From the sequence record PQ478073.1: a DNA stretch of 64,000 nt. One strand, written 5' to 3'. The position numbers and the translations under genes are program-made. Below the pieces are notes generated by a model. That model ran no database searches. It had not been told where the DNA came from and was given only the letters and a program-made list of their open reading frames with translations. Position 1 is the stretch's first letter, and each line of letters starts with the position of its first letter. Below are positions 25,119 to 37,172 of the stretch, one piece after another. The DNA comes from a phage.

Positions 25119-25346
25119 ATGAAAGTAATTCAAGTTATGGTAGAAAAATACCAAACTGAAGATGGTCGTATTTTTGATTCAGCTAAACAAGCTGAACACC
25201 ATGAACGTATTATTTCGGGTGCACGTAAAGTATGTCCTACATGTAATGGAACACAACAAGTACCGTCAGAAGATTACCGCAGCTTTTATGCTTGTCCACA
25301 CTGTGATGGGAAAGGCTACGTAGAAAAACAAGAGGTATGGAAATGA
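25119..25346 (+). CDS. small zinc-ribbon protein (CPTC ... CPHC)
   Basis: ORF track; two CxxC pairs. Confidence 0.55.
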   Translation: MKVIQVMVEKYQTEDGRIFDSAKQAEHHERIISGARKVCPTCNGTQQVPSEDYRSFYACPHCDGKGYVEKQEVWK

Positions 25347-30000: not shown

Positions 30001-30028
30001 TGGACATTTTAAATCTTAGTGATATAAT
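30001..30028 (+). promoter_or_regulatory. sigma70-like promoter TGGACA-16-TATAAT with TGn extension
   Basis: about 35 nt upstream of ClpP-like gene; -10 lies in AGTGA/TCACT dyad. Confidence 0.5.
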
Positions 30029-30062: not shown

Positions 30063-30758
30063 ATGGTTGAACAATTCATGTTTGGTGGTTATGCTAATGG
30101 CGAAGTACGTAACATTTCTATTCCTTACGTAGTTGAGAAAGTTAATGGTTCAGAACGTACATATGATCTAGCATCTCGTATGATGCAAGACCGTATCATT
30201 TTCCTTGATACTGATTTCAATGATCAAATGGCACATATCATCAAACAACAATTGGTGTGGTTAGACTCACAAGGTGATTCCCCTATTACATTCTACATTA
30301 GTTCACCTGGTGGTTCAGTACACGCAGGTTTGGGTATTGCAGACGTTGCTAAGTCTTGTATTTCCCCAATCCGCACTGTAGTTATGGGTTATGCGGCATC
30401 AATGGGTTGCTATACACAATCTGTTATTGGAACTAAAGGTTTCCGTTTAGGTGGTAAACGCTCATACTTCATGTGTCACCAAGTAAGTTCTGGTACACAA
30501 GGTCTAATTACAGACCAGAAGATTTCCCTACAACATTCTGATGCACTGAATACATTGTTGACCAAAGAAATTGCAGAAGCAGTAGGCGTATCACATGAAC
30601 AATTACTAAAAGATGCTGACCGCGATTTGTGGTTAAATGCAGAAGAAGCACTTGAATATGGTGAACATGGTTTCATTGATGGTATTATTCTTGGACCGCG
30701 TAACGAAGAAGGCAAGTACTTAGTTAAGCGTCGCGGCGGTGTGGAAGAGTGGGTGTAA
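30063..30758 (+). CDS. ClpP-family serine protease
   Basis: SSPGGSV, GYAASMG (Ser), CHQ (His) pattern typical of ClpP. Confidence 0.8.
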   Translation: MVEQFMFGGYANGEVRNISIPYVVEKVNGSERTYDLASRMMQDRIIFLDTDFNDQMAHIIKQQLVWLDSQGDSPITFYISSPGGSVHAGLGIADVAKSCISPIRTVVMGYAASMGCYTQSVIGTKGFRLGGKRSYFMCHQVSSGTQGLITDQKISLQHSDALNTLLTKEIAEAVGVSHEQLLKDADRDLWLNAEEALEYGEHGFIDGIILGPRNEEGKYLVKRRGGVEEWV

Positions 30759-30806
30759 GATAGATTTTGATGCCTCAATATGGGGCATCATCTTTGTGGA
30801 GATTAT

Positions 30807-31097
30807 ATGAAAGTACTAGTACGTAATAATACGGAAGTAGCAAATGTATTAGAAGATTCCGATTTTATTAATGTTGCGTTCGATCAAATTAGTGCAGTAG
30901 CACTTGAGTTAAAAAATGTGGATGAATCTGAGCGTGTACTAAATGGTTTTGCAATTGTACTTGAATTAATGAAAGAAGTACTAATTAAAAAGAACATTAA
31001 TCCAGTTGATGCGGTTCAACATGCAGAAGCTGTGCGTAAAGAACACGGTACATTCTCTGACAAAAAATACATTCAAACTGATGAGGTAAAAGAATAA
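30807..31097 (+). CDS. hypothetical protein (start moved from 30780)
   Basis: GGAG RBS before ATG at 30807. Confidence 0.5.
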   Translation: MKVLVRNNTEVANVLEDSDFINVAFDQISAVALELKNVDESERVLNGFAIVLELMKEVLIKKNINPVDAVQHAEAVRKEHGTFSDKKYIQTDEVKE

Positions 31098-31098
31098 T

Positions 31099-31545
31099 AT
31101 GTCCAATGCACAATATAAAGATGGTTATGACGCATACAAAGCAAAAGTAGTTCTAAGTGCTGAACAGCTAAAAATGCAGCATCCATTATATCGTCAGGGC
31201 TATCGTGCAGCACAAGCAGAAGCAATGAAGAAAAATAATGTAACTTTCCCTACTACGCTATATGATATTCCAAAACGTCCACACATTTTTAAAGCTGAAT
31301 GGACTGATATTATGGCAGCGACAAAGCGTCCACGTTTTGCTAAATTACACACCGATGAAGGTCGCTGGTTGCTAATGGGGATTATGAAAGCAGTTGAGAA
31401 TCAATCTCATAAGATTGTTCGATATAAAGATGTTGTTGCTATGGTTGATAAAGCATTTGACCTTGTACTTCAATATGGTTATGATGAAGGTGTCCTAACT
31501 GTTTCTGATTGTGAAAAATATCAGTACACCCCATATCAAAAATAA
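31099..31545 (+). CDS. hypothetical protein
   Basis: ORF track. Confidence 0.6.
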   Translation: MSNAQYKDGYDAYKAKVVLSAEQLKMQHPLYRQGYRAAQAEAMKKNNVTFPTTLYDIPKRPHIFKAEWTDIMAATKRPRFAKLHTDEGRWLLMGIMKAVENQSHKIVRYKDVVAMVDKAFDLVLQYGYDEGVLTVSDCEKYQYTPYQK

Positions 31546-31555
31546 TATTACAAAT

Positions 31556-31584
31556 AGGAATCCAGTACTGGATTCCTCTTTTTA
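31556..31584 (+). terminator. rho-independent terminator built on a perfect palindrome containing AGTACT
   Basis: AGGAATCCAGTACTGGATTCCT then T-run. Confidence 0.7.
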
Positions 31585-31669
31585 TTGCTGTATATCAATT
31601 TTCATCGATCAAAAAATGATCTATATAAGCTAAATACCCAAGGAATCATTGTTACTAGGGTAGGTGAAT

Positions 31670-32218
31670 ATGCAGCAATATAATTTAACTGAAGAACAAA
31701 GTGATATTTTTTATCATCATATGTTTTTAATTGATGAGTTTGCTTTGAAAATTAATTCTGAAGCAATTGATATATTGAAGAAATGGTATTCATGTTATAA
31801 TAAAAACAAAAAGTGGTATTGGTTTAATAGAAATTTAAAGTCATTTTTAAAAACAATAACACAAGTTGATAGTGTAGAAATGATACATAGTTCAATTGGA
31901 TATAGTTATTTGACTAAACACAATAATACTATGATATTATCCGGTTTTAAAGTTGAAAGAATTTCAAAGCTTACAGGTTTATCATTAAAAACAATTTTAT
32001 ATGATATAGAAAAGATTTGGAAAACTATAGAATTCATGCACAAAAATATGTCATTCATATATAGAAATTATGATATATTCACTGATGTACGTCAATATCA
32101 TAATAAACCTTATGTATTGAATGAAAAGTACTATAATCATATGGAAGTTTGTTCTAAACTCGTTGATGATTGGAATCTAGAGGGACATAATGAAATACAC
32201 ACACCTAAGTATAGATGA
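31670..32218 (+). CDS. hypothetical protein
   Basis: ORF track (GTG at 31664); ATG at 31670 after AGGTG. Confidence 0.55.
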   Translation: MQQYNLTEEQSDIFYHHMFLIDEFALKINSEAIDILKKWYSCYNKNKKWYWFNRNLKSFLKTITQVDSVEMIHSSIGYSYLTKHNNTMILSGFKVERISKLTGLSLKTILYDIEKIWKTIEFMHKNMSFIYRNYDIFTDVRQYHNKPYVLNEKYYNHMEVCSKLVDDWNLEGHNEIHTPKYR

Positions 32219-32714
32219 TACTAATATCTGGTTAGATAACATAATCAAGACATTAGAATTAATTAAACTTACATTACAAAAAACTACTGATATTGAAATT
32301 AATATTAAACAAGAAATATTAAACTATTATCATAGAAACAAATATAGCACTTTTATCTCTAAATTAATTTATGGATTATATGATATTGAAGATATTTGCA
32401 TCGGTTACAGTACTGGTATTTGCTTCACTGTTAATGGTTTAAAAAATGATTTAAATTTCAGACTTTCCGATGAAGAGCAAGATTTTCGTAGATTTTGTGA
32501 TAATATTATGGATACAGACAAAATTACATTTGTGATTGAATTAAATCAAACATGGTCTACATATGCAGATAAACCATTTGAAATTAATGAAACAGATGTG
32601 TTAAACTATATTCGAGTTATGAAAATTCATGATTTGTGTAAAAACGCATTGTTAAGTATTGGAGCTTATAATGAAACATACGACTTGGTTGAAGATAGCA
32701 GAAGTAGTTGCTGA
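32190..32714 (+). CDS. hypothetical protein
   Basis: ORF track; GAGGGA RBS. Confidence 0.55.
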   Translation: MKYTHLSIDDTNIWLDNIIKTLELIKLTLQKTTDIEINIKQEILNYYHRNKYSTFISKLIYGLYDIEDICIGYSTGICFTVNGLKNDLNFRLSDEEQDFRRFCDNIMDTDKITFVIELNQTWSTYADKPFEINETDVLNYIRVMKIHDLCKNALLSIGAYNETYDLVEDSRSSC

Positions 32715-34116: not shown

Positions 34117-34725
34117 ATGAAAAGACTATGGCTTGAGGTAGTACAAGCAGTAATGCTTCTGATGTTGATAAATTTTCCAGCCAGTGCTGGTGTTGAAAGT
34201 AAAAATGTGATAAAGTACAATCCTGAAACACGTAATGTATATTTCATCTCAGATATTACGGATGGGTCACTAAAGCGTATGATGGAGTTGTATGATAAAG
34301 AACACTATGATACCATTACCATCACATCGCCAGGTGGTGATTTTGATGCTGGGATTAAAATGGCAAACTTCGTTAGAGACAATGGTATAAATTTAATTGT
34401 TTCTAGGTATTGCAACTCAGCATGTACTGTGGTATTCTTCAGTGTAGCTTTTGAAAAGCGATACATGATAAATCGCTCAGTACTGGGACTTCATAACATT
34501 TCTATTAAAAGTAATGTTAAAGACGGTGATAATTCTTTTGTATCAGTTAGGCAGCTATCAACTTTTACTGAAGAAATGGCAACTAAAGTAGGTTTTCTAT
34601 TTACACTATATTCTGCAAATGGAATTCCACCAGACGTTCTATATAAAGTTAGCCGTTCGCGTGGTGAAGATGTTGTAATATTAACAAAACCAGAACTGGT
34701 TTTTTACGGTTCAGTCAAACAATAA
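34117..34725 (+). CDS. signal-peptide ClpP-fold serine protease-like protein
   Basis: N-terminal signal-like segment; ITITSPGGDFDAG and NSAC/GLHN resemble ClpP core. Confidence 0.55.
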   Translation: MKRLWLEVVQAVMLLMLINFPASAGVESKNVIKYNPETRNVYFISDITDGSLKRMMELYDKEHYDTITITSPGGDFDAGIKMANFVRDNGINLIVSRYCNSACTVVFFSVAFEKRYMINRSVLGLHNISIKSNVKDGDNSFVSVRQLSTFTEEMATKVGFLFTLYSANGIPPDVLYKVSRSRGEDVVILTKPELVFYGSVKQ

Positions 34726-34795
34726 AAATAATTAAAATAACAGGATGATTATGATGTACTTCCTTTGTTATTAATTATATTGAGATTATATAACT

Positions 34796-35056
34796 ATGAC
34801 AAACATCCAAAATTTGACATCTATTATTTTTTATGCTACAGTAGTGATGTATATTACTGTACTTTTCCTAACAGTTTTCATTTACAAAGATTACAAAAAT
34901 GGCTTTATTGATAACACAACAATGAAGTTCAATTCAAAGTTTGAAGCAATAATTTATTATGTTCTGGCAACATCATATTTGGTGTGTCTAATGTTATTAG
35001 GTACATTGATTTATATTTTATATACAACTTTATTTGCAATTGGAGCTATTTTATGA
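34796..35056 (+). CDS. small membrane protein
   Basis: ORF track; two hydrophobic segments. Confidence 0.5.
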   Translation: MTNIQNLTSIIFYATVVMYITVLFLTVFIYKDYKNGFIDNTTMKFNSKFEAIIYYVLATSYLVCLMLLGTLIYILYTTLFAIGAIL

Positions 35057-35649
35057 CATGTATCATTGCACACACTGATGGTGTAACTTCTTTTATTGCA
35101 GGGGACAAACTGGGAAGTAACGGGTTCACAAAGTCCGTTCAAACTGAGCCTAAAGTATTTGAGAAAGAATTCATTAAAATCAATGATGATGCTGGTTTGA
35201 CCCGTACAAAAGAAATTATGGCGATTGGTTACACCACATCATTCCGTATGGGTCAACTTCTTACTTACAGTTTGAATCTACCACAGCAAGATGCAAATGA
35301 GACGTTTCCACAGTACTTAGTACTGAAAGTTATTCCTATTATTCGTCAAATGTTCAAAGAGGAATGGGGTTCTCGTGATCCTTCACAAGAAGTAGGTGGT
35401 GGACAGTTCATCATTCTTCACAATCATACAATTTATGAAGTTCAAGAAGATTTTTCAGTTCTTCAACCGAAAACACGAATCACCGCCGTAGGTAGCGGAA
35501 CATATCATGCTATTGCAGCAATGCAAGCATATATTGAAGTTGAAAATGAATCAAAAGTGCCACTACATGAACGCATCAAATCAATTTTTAAAATTGTCAG
35601 TGATAATGTAACTAGTGTAAGTGCCGAGTTTGATGTTTTAAAGTATTAA
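35053..35649 (+). CDS. HslV / proteasome beta-subunit-like hydrolase
   Basis: Thr after initiator Met; IAGDKLGSNG and TAVGSGTYHAIAA parallel HslV; GGAG RBS before ATG at 35053. Confidence 0.6.
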   Translation: MTCIIAHTDGVTSFIAGDKLGSNGFTKSVQTEPKVFEKEFIKINDDAGLTRTKEIMAIGYTTSFRMGQLLTYSLNLPQQDANETFPQYLVLKVIPIIRQMFKEEWGSRDPSQEVGGGQFIILHNHTIYEVQEDFSVLQPKTRITAVGSGTYHAIAAMQAYIEVENESKVPLHERIKSIFKIVSDNVTSVSAEFDVLKY

Positions 35650-35862: not shown

Positions 35863-35871
35863 GGATTGAAT

Positions 35872-36624
35872 ATGATATCAGAAAAATTTATAAGTAATGA
35901 AGGTAAAAAAAGATTACTGATTATATCTGGTGCAGGACTTTCTGTTGAAAGTGGTATGGAACCTTTTCGATTTGATGATGGTTTGTGGGATACATTTAAA
36001 ATCAATGATGTATGTAACATTGCTAGTTTAACTACGAAATATCACGTTGTTCATTCCTTCTATAATACATTACGTGTAAAATTGGGACAATGCGAACCCA
36101 ATGCAATGCATTATTTTATAAAATCGTTAGAAGATCAATATGGTGATTGCTTCCTTCATATGACTTCTAACATGGATGATCTTTATACTCGTATCGGTGG
36201 TCATGAGCTTAAACTTCATGGAAACTTGTGCGAAGTTATTGAAAATTATAGTATCAATTCCGATGATTATAATGTTATTAACTGCGGATACGAACCATAC
36301 ATACCAAAACATGATGTTTTTGCTAAACCAAATGTAGTAATGATTGGAGAATATCATCGTTATGTTGATGGTATTCGCTTACCAATTTACGAAGAACGAA
36401 ATAATGTGTTGAAATCTCTTAATGAAAATGATACAGTTATTGTAATTGGTAGTAGCGATACAGTACTAGTATGGTCGAGATTAGCAGCAGCATTACCATG
36501 TTATAGTGTTAATGTTAACATTCGTAAAAATGATAATGATTTTTTGTTTAATGAAAAAGTTATCAAGCCAGCAACCAAAGCAATACCACATCTAGAGACT
36601 ATAATTAAGGAACGTATGAAATGA
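35872..36624 (+). CDS. Sir2-family (sirtuin-like) NAD-dependent enzyme
   Basis: GAGLSVESGMEPFR NAD-binding motif; HG catalytic pair; GSS near C-terminus; AAGGA RBS. Confidence 0.75.
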   Translation: MISEKFISNEGKKRLLIISGAGLSVESGMEPFRFDDGLWDTFKINDVCNIASLTTKYHVVHSFYNTLRVKLGQCEPNAMHYFIKSLEDQYGDCFLHMTSNMDDLYTRIGGHELKLHGNLCEVIENYSINSDDYNVINCGYEPYIPKHDVFAKPNVVMIGEYHRYVDGIRLPIYEERNNVLKSLNENDTVIVIGSSDTVLVWSRLAAALPCYSVNVNIRKNDNDFLFNEKVIKPATKAIPHLETIIKERMK

Positions 36625-37172
36625 GTGTTAAAGAAGTTCCCTTTGGTGAATATGGCTCACGTGCAAATTTTGTATTTTGTTATTTCTTTGCAAGAAAATG
36701 TAACCCTTACAAAAACTATGAGTTGAATGATATACCAGAAGTAAATTTAGTTTTACTACAATTACGATGGGATGGTCTTCTTGGTGGATGTGGTGGAACC
36801 GTAGAAAGTACTGATATCTCACTAGAAGATGCGTTGCGTCGTGAAGTTCAAGAAGAAATGGATTACAATATTTTTGTTTCCCATCTTCGACCACTCAAAA
36901 CTTTTGAAATTTACCCAGGTGCAAACAGTCATAGTTTTAGCTATGAAGTAAGCTATGACGAGTTGAAACACATTAGAGATGGATACACTAATGCTAAACA
37001 TGCGAGTGCTGAAGTTGCTGGTGTAAATTTATGTCATATTTCTCGTTATTCTAAGGGACAAAATCGAGAAGCGGGATATAATAATCTTATGACACAGAAC
37101 TTCATTGGTACAGCAAAACAAGAATTGGAGTATCTGGTTCAAAAAGAAAACTTACTAATTAGTTATCTATAG
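36621..37172 (+). CDS. Nudix hydrolase
   Basis: Nudix box GGCGGTVESTDISLEDALRREVQEE; ATGA coupling to Sir2 gene. Confidence 0.7.
   Translation: MSVKEVPFGEYGSRANFVFCYFFARKCNPYKNYELNDIPEVNLVLLQLRWDGLLGGCGGTVESTDISLEDALRREVQEEMDYNIFVSHLRPLKTFEIYPGANSHSFSYEVSYDELKHIRDGYTNAKHASAEVAGVNLCHISRYSKGQNREAGYNNLMTQNFIGTAKQELEYLVQKENLLISYL

What the first reader, a model, noticed from the sequence alone, without database searches (positions are those of the whole stretch)
30063..31545. ClpP-family protease gene far from any capsid genes
A canonical ClpP-like sequence (Ser and His positions preserved) is driven by its own extended -10 promoter and followed by two coupled small genes. ClpP-fold prohead proteases normally sit beside portal and capsid genes, which are not in this window, so this copy may target host or phage regulatory proteins.
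Basis: inference. Interest (0 to 1): 0.45.

Follow-up and report, generated by a model that had tools for sequence, protein, structure and literature searches.

The report
Jumbo-phage ClpP, not the capsid protease
This gene encodes a genuine ClpP-type protease core in a 348-kb E. coli phage that also encodes its own ClpA-like motor and ClpS-like adaptor, so it most likely degrades proteins in the infected cell instead of trimming the capsid; the gene itself was already annotated.

Summary
Window 30063-30758 (+) encodes a 231-aa ClpP (Pfam PF00574, E=4e-41). It has the Ser113/His139/Asp188 triad and the N-terminal axial-loop motif, and is 36% identical to E. coli ClpP.

The window is Escherichia phage 121Q or a near-identical Asteriusvirus. 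The capsid module of 121Q lies about 116 kb away and has its own T4 gp21-type (Peptidase_S77) prohead protease. The RefSeq label "head maturation protease" for this gene is therefore almost certainly wrong.

The same genome encodes two likely partners:
- A ClpA-like AAA+ protein, whose best solved-structure match is E. coli ClpA at 2e-180. It carries an IGM tripeptide where ClpA has its ClpP-docking IGL loop.
- A ClpS-like adaptor.

All three genes occur in the same roughly 70 Rak2-like jumbo phages. clpP and the clpA-like gene share a strand-specific promoter class (GGACA-N13-TGATATAAT). That class also precedes replication genes and the late sigma factor gene.

The two downstream genes (30807-31097, 31099-31545) stay next to clpP across five genera. 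Their function remains unknown.

Best reading: the proteolytic core of a phage-encoded ClpS/ClpA/ClpP machine expressed before late genes, with unknown substrates. The gene is already annotated and has been discussed in comparative papers, so interest is modest.

The parts
30001..30028 (+). Sigma-70-type promoter with extended -10 (TGGACA-16-TATAAT, TG at -15/-14). It is a member of a repeated, + strand-only phage promoter class.
   Evidence: 11 of 12 matches, TG present. (shared GGACA...TGATATAAT context at 9 sites in the window). (16 on +, 0 on -, 0.57 expected in 164 kb). Identical in phAPEC6, and TTGACA-N13-TGTTACAAT sits at the same place in Klebsiella phage Muenster.
30063..30758 (+). 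clpP-type serine protease gene (121Q gene 464), 231 aa. Catalytic Ser113/His139/Asp188, N-terminal axial-loop motif IPYVVEK..GER, about 17-aa N-terminal leader and a 22-aa conserved C-terminal extension.
30768..30790 (+). Stable hairpin just after the clpP stop codon, followed by a weak U-tract (UCUUUGUGG). Possible partial terminator or 3' stabiliser.
   Evidence: -15.5 kcal/mol, z=-2.6. A terminator is annotated at the same junction in phage Muenster. It is absent in GAP32, BF, XbC2 and XaC1, where the genes abut.
30807..31097 (+). Gene 465, 96 aa, helical, function unknown (phrog_16159). Always immediately downstream of clpP in Rak2-like phages.
31099..31545 (+). Gene 466, 148 aa, all-alpha, function unknown (phrog_16190). 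Translationally coupled to gene 465. Carries an invariant FPTxLxDxP motif in a low-confidence linker.
31556..31586 (+). Intrinsic-terminator-like hairpin plus U-tract that closes the clpP-465-466 unit.
   Evidence: -12.5 kcal/mol, z=-3.4, 0 of 200 shuffles fold as well.

Best explanation
Gene 464 encodes the proteolytic core (ClpP) of a phage-encoded ATP-dependent Clp protease. It is not a capsid-maturation enzyme.

**Shown here**
- It is a ClpP-family protein with an intact Ser-His-Asp triad and the N-terminal axial-loop motif of chambered, unfoldase-dependent ClpPs.
- The phage has a separate T4 gp21-type prohead protease inside its capsid module, about 116 kb away.
- The same genome encodes a ClpA-type double-ring AAA+ protein with intact Walker and pore-loop motifs. 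It has an [ILV]-G-[MF] tripeptide exactly where E. coli ClpA has its ClpP-docking IGL loop.
- The genome also encodes a ClpS-domain protein.
- All three genes are kept together across the Rak2-like jumbo phages.

**Inferred**
- The protein forms a ClpP-like tetradecamer that the phage ClpA-like hexamer docks onto through its IGM loops. The hexamer then unfolds and feeds substrates in, and the ClpS-like protein delivers some of them.
- Host RNA polymerase transcribes the gene before late genes, from a GGACA-N13-TGATATAAT promoter. The clpA-like gene, replication genes and the late sigma factor gene have the same promoter type.
- The enzyme therefore acts in the cytoplasm of the infected cell on host and/or phage proteins. 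The substrates are unknown.
- Genes 465 and 466, which are always attached, may be accessory factors. Nothing here shows what they do.
For: **ClpP identity**
- Pfam E=4e-41.
- All 60 listed solved-structure matches are cellular or organellar ClpPs, aligned from the IPYV motif onward.
- The triad and axial-loop residues P4, V6, E8, E14 and R15 are conserved in 7 of 7 phage orthologues.
- Cellular ClpP models score 152-155 bits; the ClpP-related head-maturation model scores 51 bits.

**Separate capsid protease**
- Portal_T4, Peptidase_S77 (E=1e-20) and Gp23 lie in one block at record 330755-336820.
- phrog_207 "head maturation protease" matches that gene at 1e-58.
- It is detected in phAPEC6 virions. 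ClpP gp353c and gp352c/gp351c are not listed (PMC7247149).
- RaK2 likewise assigns capsid protein cleavage to its gp21-like gp092 (PMC3622015).

**Partner genes**
- Gene 581 matches E. coli ClpA at 2e-180 in a single stretch with no M-domain.
- IGM at residues 626-628 aligns with the IGL of ClpA. The equivalents are LGM, VGM, IGF and IGF in GAP32, BF, PA5oct and Atu_ph07. Walker A/B, KYRG and GYVG motifs are intact.
- Gene 48 has a ClpS domain above the Pfam cut-off.

**Co-occurrence**
- 70 records hold ClpP at 60% identity or more.
- 71 records hold the ClpA-like protein at 60% identity or more.
- 72 records hold the ClpS-like protein.
- The main genera are the same in all three searches (Escherichia 33-34, Klebsiella 10-11, Salmonella 8-10, Erwinia 8).

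**Shared promoter class**
- Present upstream of genes 464, 581 and 591 (late sigma), and of the ssDNA-binding, primase and exonuclease genes.
- The clpA-like genes of GAP32 and Serratia BF have the same motif about 60 nt upstream.
Against: - No biochemical or expression data exist for this phage. Assembly, docking and activity are inferred from sequence alone.
- The protein scores below the NCBIfam ClpP equivalog cut-offs (152 against 309 bits), so it is a divergent ClpP.
- Of the residues I recall as lining the E. coli ClpP docking pocket, three differ: Y60 to T, F82 to S and L114 to G. Docking geometry may differ, or docking may be weak.
- The clpA-like and clpS-like genes are 83 kb and 179 kb away, not in an operon with clpP.
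- The PA5oct ClpP orthologue carries an "ESI-MS/MS" note, meaning it was seen in a virion preparation. That study, however, lists seven enzymes it regards as unrelated to the virion.
- Promoter timing is inferred from which genes share the motif, not measured.
- I did not read the annotation of record 100,001-184,301, so another unfoldase gene there is not excluded.
Confidence: 0.7

Rival explanations
1. The phage ClpP works mainly with the host unfoldases ClpX or ClpA, or mixes into host ClpP rings. This would boost or redirect host Clp proteolysis. The phage ClpA-like protein would then act on its own as a chaperone or translocase, for instance in virion assembly.
For: - The axial-loop motif and several docking-pocket positions (Y62, I90/V, M92, L189/I) resemble E. 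coli ClpP.
- Iyer et al. 2021 treat the components separately. They describe ClpP as probably host-directed, ClpS as bringing targets to the host ClpAP, and ClpA/ClpX as possible translocases or assembly aids (PMC7824862).
- The clpA-like gene lies among tail and virion genes.
Against: - The phage ClpA-like protein keeps a docking tripeptide at the ClpA IGL position in five lineages. A stand-alone chaperone such as ClpB lacks this loop (general knowledge).
- ClpP, the ClpA-like protein and the ClpS-like protein co-occur in the same roughly 70 genomes, and clpP and the clpA-like gene share a promoter class.
- The phage ClpP is only 36% identical to host ClpP, which makes mixed rings less likely.
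- The ClpA-like protein is not in the phAPEC6 virion list.
Confidence: 0.2
2. Gene 464 is a head-maturation (prohead) protease, as the RefSeq record and PHROG 94 label it.
For: - The best PHROG hit is phrog_94 "head maturation protease" at 4.6e-44.
- RefSeq gives the product name "head maturation protease".
- The PA5oct orthologue was flagged as detected in a virion preparation.
Against: - A dedicated Peptidase_S77 protease sits between portal and scaffold, about 116 kb away, and is the one found in virions.
- The NCBIfam head-maturation model scores 51 bits against a cut-off of 120, while the cellular ClpP model scores 155 bits.
- The match to phrog_94 covers only positions 56-262 of a 622-position profile, i.e. 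the shared ClpP fold.
- The flanking genes are DNA ligase, phosphoesterase and dCMP deaminase, not head genes.
- The original GenBank record says only "protease (ClpP-like)".
Confidence: 0.05
3. The gene is a decaying or catalytically irrelevant copy acquired from a bacterium.
For: It scores below the curated ClpP equivalog cut-offs, and several docking-pocket residues are altered.
Against: - The triad and axial-loop residues are invariant from 33% to 100% identity across seven phage genera.
- The protein is 100% identical in many independent isolates.
- A large, distinct phage clade appears on contigs of about 350 kb.
- Synteny with genes 465 and 466 is conserved.
Confidence: 0.03

Closest known systems
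E. coli ClpAPS protease (ClpP tetradecamer, ClpA hexamer, ClpS adaptor)
   Same: - All three component types are encoded by the phage.
- ClpP has the Ser-His-Asp triad, the axial-loop motif and a short N-terminal leader similar in length to the E. coli 14-aa propeptide.
- The ClpA-like protein aligns over its full length (17-741 against 20-734) with both AAA+ modules and the docking loop.
- A ClpS domain is present.
   Different: - Identity is only 36% for ClpP.
- The docking tripeptide is IGM, not IGL.
- Three recalled pocket residues are changed (Y60T, F82S, L114G).
- A conserved 22-aa C-terminal extension is present (LGPRNEEGKYLVKRRGGVEEWV).
- The ClpS-like protein is 181 aa with a 70-aa N-terminal extension.
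- The three genes are dispersed over 264 kb.
- Two phage-only small genes are attached to clpP.
- No biochemistry is available.
Clp-family genes described in other Rak2-like and other jumbo phages (Agrobacterium phage Atu_ph07; Iyer et al. 2021 survey)
   Same: - Atu_ph07 is reported to encode ClpX, ClpA, ClpB, ClpS and ClpP-type proteins, and ClpA is described as conserved in most Rak2-like phages (PMC6102473).
- ClpP in some jumbo phages is proposed to be deployed against the host (PMC7824862).
- Atu_ph07 and PA5oct orthologues of both ClpP and ClpA were recovered here.
   Different: - Those papers list the genes but do not link ClpP, ClpA and ClpS into one machine. They also do not note the docking loop, the shared promoter class or the conserved clpP-465-466 cassette.
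- PA5oct lacks genes 465 and 466 next to clpP.
ClpP-fold prohead proteases of tailed phages (NCBIfam NF045542; protease-capsid fusions NF045540; PHROG 94/2976/133)
   Same: They share the ClpP/crotonase-type fold and the serine nucleophile region. This is why the PHROG and RefSeq labels were transferred.
   Different: - Those enzymes are encoded next to the portal, scaffold or capsid genes, or are fused to them.
- This gene is 116 kb from the capsid module, scores far below the family cut-off and retains the N-terminal axial loop.
- The phage already has an S77 protease.
T4 gp21 prohead protease (Peptidase_S77)
   Same: 121Q has such a gene (gene 601).
   Different: It is a different fold and family. 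Gene 464 does not match it.

Membership tests
ClpP (MEROPS S14, Pfam PF00574), chambered ATP-dependent Clp protease core | Sequence match to the family model above the curated threshold | tested here: met
   PF00574 gives 141.3 bits against a cut-off of 20.2, covering model positions 2-179 of 182.
ClpP (MEROPS S14, Pfam PF00574), chambered ATP-dependent Clp protease core | Catalytic Ser-His-Asp triad at the family positions | tested here: met
   Ser113, His139 and Asp188 align with E. coli Ser111, His136 and Asp185 (precursor numbering). They are invariant in 7 phage orthologues.
ClpP (MEROPS S14, Pfam PF00574), chambered ATP-dependent Clp protease core | N-terminal axial-loop (pore) motif needed for coupling to the unfoldase | tested here: met
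   IPYVVEKVNGSERTYD aligns with VPMVIEQTSRGERSFD of E. coli. P4, V6, E8, E14 and R15 are conserved in all orthologues.
ClpP (MEROPS S14, Pfam PF00574), chambered ATP-dependent Clp protease core | Orthology with bacterial ClpP (NCBIfam equivalog thresholds) | tested here: not met
   TIGR00493 scores 151.6 bits against 308.6, and NF001368 scores 155.2 against 249. It is a divergent, phage-specific branch, about 45% identical to the nearest typical ClpPs of 193-200 aa.
ClpP (MEROPS S14, Pfam PF00574), chambered ATP-dependent Clp protease core | Hydrophobic pocket that receives the IGF/IGL loop of the unfoldase | tested here: inconclusive
   The pocket positions were recalled from memory. Y62, I90(V), M92, F112(L) and L189(I) are kept; Y60T, F82S and L114G are changed. 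No complex model could be made.
ClpP (MEROPS S14, Pfam PF00574), chambered ATP-dependent Clp protease core | A cognate AAA+ unfoldase with a docking tripeptide | tested here: met
   A gene for one exists in the same genome. Gene 581 is ClpA-like, with IGM aligned to the ClpA IGL. Physical interaction was not tested.
ClpP (MEROPS S14, Pfam PF00574), chambered ATP-dependent Clp protease core | Tetradecameric barrel and peptidase activity | not testable with these tools
   This requires purified protein or a multimer prediction.
ClpP-related phage head-maturation protease (NCBIfam NF045542; the RefSeq/PHROG 94 label) | Score above the family cut-off | tested here: not met
   51.3 bits against a cut-off of 120.
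ClpP-related phage head-maturation protease (NCBIfam NF045542; the RefSeq/PHROG 94 label) | Encoded in the head module next to portal, scaffold and major capsid protein | tested here: not met
   The head module is at record 330755-336820 and gene 464 at 214364-215059. Its neighbours are ligase, phosphoesterase and dCMP deaminase genes.
ClpP-related phage head-maturation protease (NCBIfam NF045542; the RefSeq/PHROG 94 label) | Being the phage's only or assigned prohead protease, found in proheads or virions | tested here: not met
   A Peptidase_S77 gene occupies that role. The phAPEC6 virion proteome lists gp227c but not gp353c (PMC7247149). Caveat: the PA5oct orthologue was flagged by ESI-MS/MS.
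ClpA-type unfoldase (for the partner gene 581, outside the window) | Two AAA+ modules, no ClpB/ClpC M-domain, and a ClpP-docking loop in D2 | tested here: met
   It aligns to E. coli ClpA in a single stretch at 2e-180, whereas ClpB and ClpC align in two stretches. GEAGVGKT and GPSGTGKT, DE Walker B motifs, KYRG, GYVG and IGM are all present.

The most novel reading that the evidence does not exclude
The Rak2-like jumbo phages carry a self-contained, orthogonal Clp degradation machine made of their own ClpP, ClpA-like motor and ClpS-like adaptor. Its docking interface has diverged from the host's: IGM/LGM/VGM loops on the motor, paired with a remodelled ClpP pocket and a conserved C-terminal tail. 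This would insulate it from host ClpX and ClpA. The two phage-only proteins always encoded next to clpP (465 and 466, the latter with an invariant FPTxLxDxP linear motif) would be dedicated regulators or substrate selectors. They would aim the machine at host defence or regulatory proteins, or time the removal of early phage proteins.
Probability: 0.2. Interest if true: 0.55.

Novelty: already known. Interest (0 to 1): 0.28.

Why it matters
Viruses of bacteria are usually thought to borrow the host's proteolytic machines. A phage that brings a full ClpS/ClpA/ClpP set could remodel the infected cell's proteome on its own terms. It could, for example, remove defence proteins or recycle amino acids. 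Such a system would also be a compact, naturally orthogonal degradation module for synthetic biology.

In practical terms, the result corrects a database label ("head maturation protease") that is spreading through RefSeq and Pharokka-style annotations of jumbo phages.

The gene itself and the presence of Clp genes in these phages are already on record, so the advance here is a synthesis and not a discovery.

Tried and rejected
**Function of gene 466**
- The AlphaFold model was acceptable (pLDDT 82).
- Foldseek against viral models returned only an orthologue.
- An exhaustive profile search found 27 clusters, nearly all stand-alone proteins of similar size.
- No function was assigned.

**Function of gene 465**
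- Only five close homologues were available, so the model was poor (pLDDT 59).
- A profile of 10 orthologues against PDB sequences hit only designed helical repeats at E of 0.09 or worse.
- The acidic catalytic residues of MazG are not conserved. I keep this as a weak lead only.

**Other dead ends**
- The afdb50 fold library was not available.
- A literature search for "phage-encoded ClpP", "phage ClpP" or "viral ClpP" returned no papers. No experimental study of a phage ClpP, ClpA or ClpS turned up.
- I considered that the second ClpP-fold gene (34117-34725) might form a ClpP1/P2-type mixed ring with gene 464. I rejected this because that gene has an N-terminal signal-peptide-like segment, matches CLP_protease only marginally (E=0.007, below cut-off), and is absent from GAP32 and Serratia BF.
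- I considered a late (gp55-type) promoter. No TATAAATA is present upstream of gene 464.
Full report
**Source of the window.** Window 29500-32500 matches Escherichia phage 121Q at 99.5% identity over all 3001 bases (NC_025447 / KM507819). 121Q is a 348,532-bp jumbo myovirus of the genus Asteriusvirus, in the Rak2-like group. About twenty other Asteriusvirus genomes match at 96-97%. Window position equals record position minus 184,301, with small indels. The encoded ClpP is 100% identical to that of 121Q, PBECO4, SP27 and others.

**The observation.**
- ORF 30063-30758 (+) encodes 231 aa.
- It matches Pfam CLP_protease at E=4.2e-41 over nearly the whole model.
- All of the top 60 solved-structure matches are cellular or organellar ClpPs, aligned from the N-terminal IPYV motif onward.
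- Against E. coli ClpP it is 36% identical. I verified that sequence as identical to PDB 3mt6.
- Ser113, His139 and Asp188 fall on the catalytic triad. Arg187 falls on the conserved Arg next to the catalytic Asp.
- The axial-loop segment is retained. These residues are invariant in orthologues from Klebsiella phage Muenster, Cronobacter phage GAP32, Serratia phage BF, Xanthomonas phages XbC2 and XaC1, and Pseudomonas phage PA5oct.
- A variable N-terminal leader of about 17 aa is present. Its length recalls the 14-aa E. coli propeptide.
- A 22-aa C-terminal extension is conserved in the enterobacterial and xanthomonad phages.

**Transcription signals.**
- The 64-nt gap upstream holds TGGACA-16-TATAAT with an extended -10 TG.
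- A single such site is not evidence in this AT-rich DNA (49 sites found, 43.6 expected).
- The context is shared, however. Nine TGNTATAAT sites in the window carry G[GA]AC[AG] at the same distance.
- In 164 kb of 121Q, the pattern [AG][AG]AC[AG]-N12-14-TGNTATAAT occurs 16 times on the + strand and never on the - strand. Shuffles give 0.57.
- Members of this class precede gene 464 (clpP), gene 581 (clpA-like; sequence read) and gene 591 (gp55-like late sigma factor).
- In the first 50 kb they also precede the ssDNA-binding protein, primase and exonuclease genes.
- The clpA-like genes of GAP32 and Serratia BF have the same motif about 60 nt upstream. Phage Muenster has TTGACA-N13-TGTTACAAT in front of its clpP.
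- Because the late sigma factor and replication genes must be made before late genes, I infer that this is a pre-late promoter class read by host RNA polymerase. This is inference, not measurement.

**The operon.**
- A stable hairpin follows clpP at 30768-30790.
- Gene 465 then starts at 30807 behind a GGAG. An upstream ATG at 30780 lies inside the hairpin and is not supported by the orthologues.
- Gene 466 starts one base after the stop codon of gene 465.
- A hairpin plus U-tract at 31556-31577 ends the unit.
- The clpP-465-466 order is conserved in Muenster, GAP32, BF, XbC2 and XaC1, where ClpP identity falls as low as 45%. In several of these the genes abut directly. It is not conserved in PA5oct.

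**Where the capsid genes are.** I read the 121Q annotation for record 1-100,000 and 184,302-348,199.
- The head module lies at 330755-336820: portal (Portal_T4, 4e-112), a structural protein, a Peptidase_S77 gp21-like protease (1e-20; phrog_207 at 1e-58), scaffold, and the Gp23-type major capsid protein (1e-89).
- That is about 116 kb from gene 464.
- In the closely related phage phAPEC6, virion mass spectrometry lists the gp21-like protease, scaffold, capsid protein and portal. It does not list gp353c (ClpP), gp352c or gp351c (PMC7247149 Table 1; numbering).
- The RaK2 paper also assigns capsid cleavage to its gp21-like gp092 (PMC3622015).
- NCBIfam scores the protein at 152-155 bits on cellular ClpP models. 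It scores 51 bits on the ClpP-related head-maturation model, whose cut-off is 120.
- The RefSeq name "head maturation protease" comes from the PHROG 94 label. That match covers only the ClpP-fold part of a 622-position profile.
- One caveat: the PA5oct orthologue carries an ESI-MS/MS note. That study itself counts seven "virion-unrelated enzymes" among its detections.

**Partners.**
- *Gene 581* (record 298257-300545, 762 aa) is ClpA-like. E. coli ClpA is its best solved match (2e-180), aligned in one stretch over residues 17-741. ClpB and ClpC align in two stretches, so there is no M-domain.
- Both of its Walker A/B pairs, the D1 KYRG loop and the D2 GYVG loop are present.
- The tripeptide IGM (626-628) aligns with the IGL loop that docks E. 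coli ClpA onto ClpP. The equivalents are LGM (GAP32), VGM (BF), IGF (PA5oct) and IGF (Atu_ph07). The role of the IGL loop is established knowledge of the family; its function here is inferred.
- *Gene 48* (record 34461-35006, 181 aa) has a ClpS domain above the Pfam cut-off.
- tblastn finds the ClpS-like protein in 72 phage records, all of them Rak2-like enterobacterial or xanthomonad jumbo phages.
- ClpP at 60% identity or more occurs in 70 records, and the ClpA-like protein at 60% or more in 71. The main genera are the same in all three searches (Escherichia 33-34, Klebsiella 10-11, Salmonella 8-10, Erwinia 8). The three genes travel together.

**Docking pocket.** I recalled the pocket residues of E. 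coli ClpP from memory. Y62, I90, M92, F112 and L189 are conserved in character. Y60, F82 and L114 are replaced by T, S/N and G in the phage proteins. This may reflect co-adaptation with the IGM/LGM/VGM loops, or a weaker interface. I could not test which.

**Genes 465 and 466.** Both families are confined to these phages. Word-based searches found 5 and 18 clusters, and an exhaustive profile search found 27 clusters for gene 466.
- Gene 466 is all-alpha (pLDDT 82). Its most conserved stretch, FPTxLxDxP, lies in a low-confidence linker. No fold match was informative.
- Gene 465 is a small helical protein with a weak pointer to the MazG/HisE fold and without the catalytic acidic motif.
- Their constant attachment to clpP suggests a functional link. 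I cannot say what it is.

**Mechanism proposed.** See the best explanation: a phage-encoded ClpS/ClpA/ClpP protease expressed before late genes, acting on cytoplasmic proteins.
- *Shown:* family membership, active-site and pore motifs, a separate capsid protease, partner genes with a docking loop, co-occurrence, and a shared promoter motif.
- *Inferred:* oligomer assembly, docking, timing and substrates.
- *Main rival:* the phage ClpP serves host ClpX or ClpA.

**Comparison with what is known.**
- The GenBank record already calls gene 464 "protease (ClpP-like)" and gene 581 "ClpA-like".
- Attai et al. 2018 list Clp-family genes in Atu_ph07 and note that ClpA is conserved in Rak2-like phages (PMC6102473).
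- Iyer et al. 2021 propose that jumbo-phage ClpP is deployed against the host. They discuss ClpS and ClpA separately (PMC7824862).
- I found no experimental work on any of these proteins.
- The finding is therefore already known as a gene and as an idea.
- What is added here: the explicit exclusion of the capsid role, the docking-loop and co-occurrence evidence that ties the three components together, the shared promoter class, and the conserved clpP-465-466 cassette.

**Verdict.** The gene is already known, and interest is modest (0.28). The remaining open question is experimental: what a phage-owned Clp machine degrades, and whether it is insulated from the host's.

Noticed in passing
window 34117-34725 (+): A second ClpP-fold gene (121Q gene 473, 202 aa, phrog_26024 "protease"). 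Its N-terminus looks like a signal peptide (MKRLWLEVVQAVMLLMLINFPASAG). It matches CLP_protease only marginally (E=0.007, below cut-off). Orthologues exist in Muenster and XaC1 but not in GAP32 or Serratia BF. It may be an exported serine protease, not a partner of gene 464.
   Followed up: partly
window 35053-35649 (+): An HslV-like N-terminal-nucleophile peptidase (gene 475, 198 aa, begins MT...; phrog_1040 at 1e-23). Similarity to E. coli HslV is weak and local, around the GSG motif. No HslU-like gene appeared in the parts of the genome I read.
   Followed up: partly
window 4989, 6751, 8452, 14534, 18420, 22304, 24566, 30020, 39330 (+ strand); also 121Q record 1-50,000 and 184,302-348,199: A repeated promoter-like motif found only on the + strand: G[GA]AC[AG]-N13-TG[AC]TATAAT. 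There are 16 copies in 164 kb against 0.57 expected, plus 6 more in the first 50 kb. It sits upstream of replication genes, the late sigma factor gene, clpP and the clpA-like gene. It is probably the early/middle promoter class of this phage.
   Followed up: partly
121Q record 34461-35006 and 298257-300545 (outside the window): A ClpS-domain gene (gene 48) and a ClpA-like gene (gene 581) complete a Clp system with the window's clpP. In PA5oct and Atu_ph07 a DnaJ-like gene sits immediately upstream of the clpA-like gene. PA5oct also encodes FtsH near its clpP.
   Followed up: yes
window 30063-30758; database records NC_025447, NC_027364, NC_019401 and others: RefSeq and Pharokka-style records name this ClpP "head maturation protease". 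The label is transferred from PHROG 94 and conflicts with the presence of a Peptidase_S77 protease in the capsid module.
   Followed up: yes
window 31246-31272 (residues 50-58 of gene 466): The most conserved stretch of gene 466 (F50 P51 T52 x L54 x D56 x P58, invariant in 19 sequences) lies in the only low-confidence, apparently unstructured part of the model. It looks like a short linear docking motif.
   Followed up: no
window 32190-32714 (+): Gene 468 is labelled "virion structural protein" (phrog_19307). Its phAPEC6 orthologue gp349c is not in that phage's published virion proteome list.
   Followed up: partly
window 35866-37172 (+): A Sir2-family gene and a Nudt16-like Nudix gene lie side by side. 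At the corresponding place, relatives carry NMN adenylyltransferase/ADP-ribose pyrophosphatase and nicotinamide phosphoribosyltransferase genes. This looks like an NAD-metabolism cluster.
   Followed up: no
window 25119-25346 (+): Gene 457 (75 aa) has a DnaJ-type CXXCXGXG zinc-finger segment (matches below Pfam cut-offs). Together with GroES-like and chaperonin-like genes elsewhere in the genome, it points to a broader phage proteostasis toolkit.
   Followed up: no
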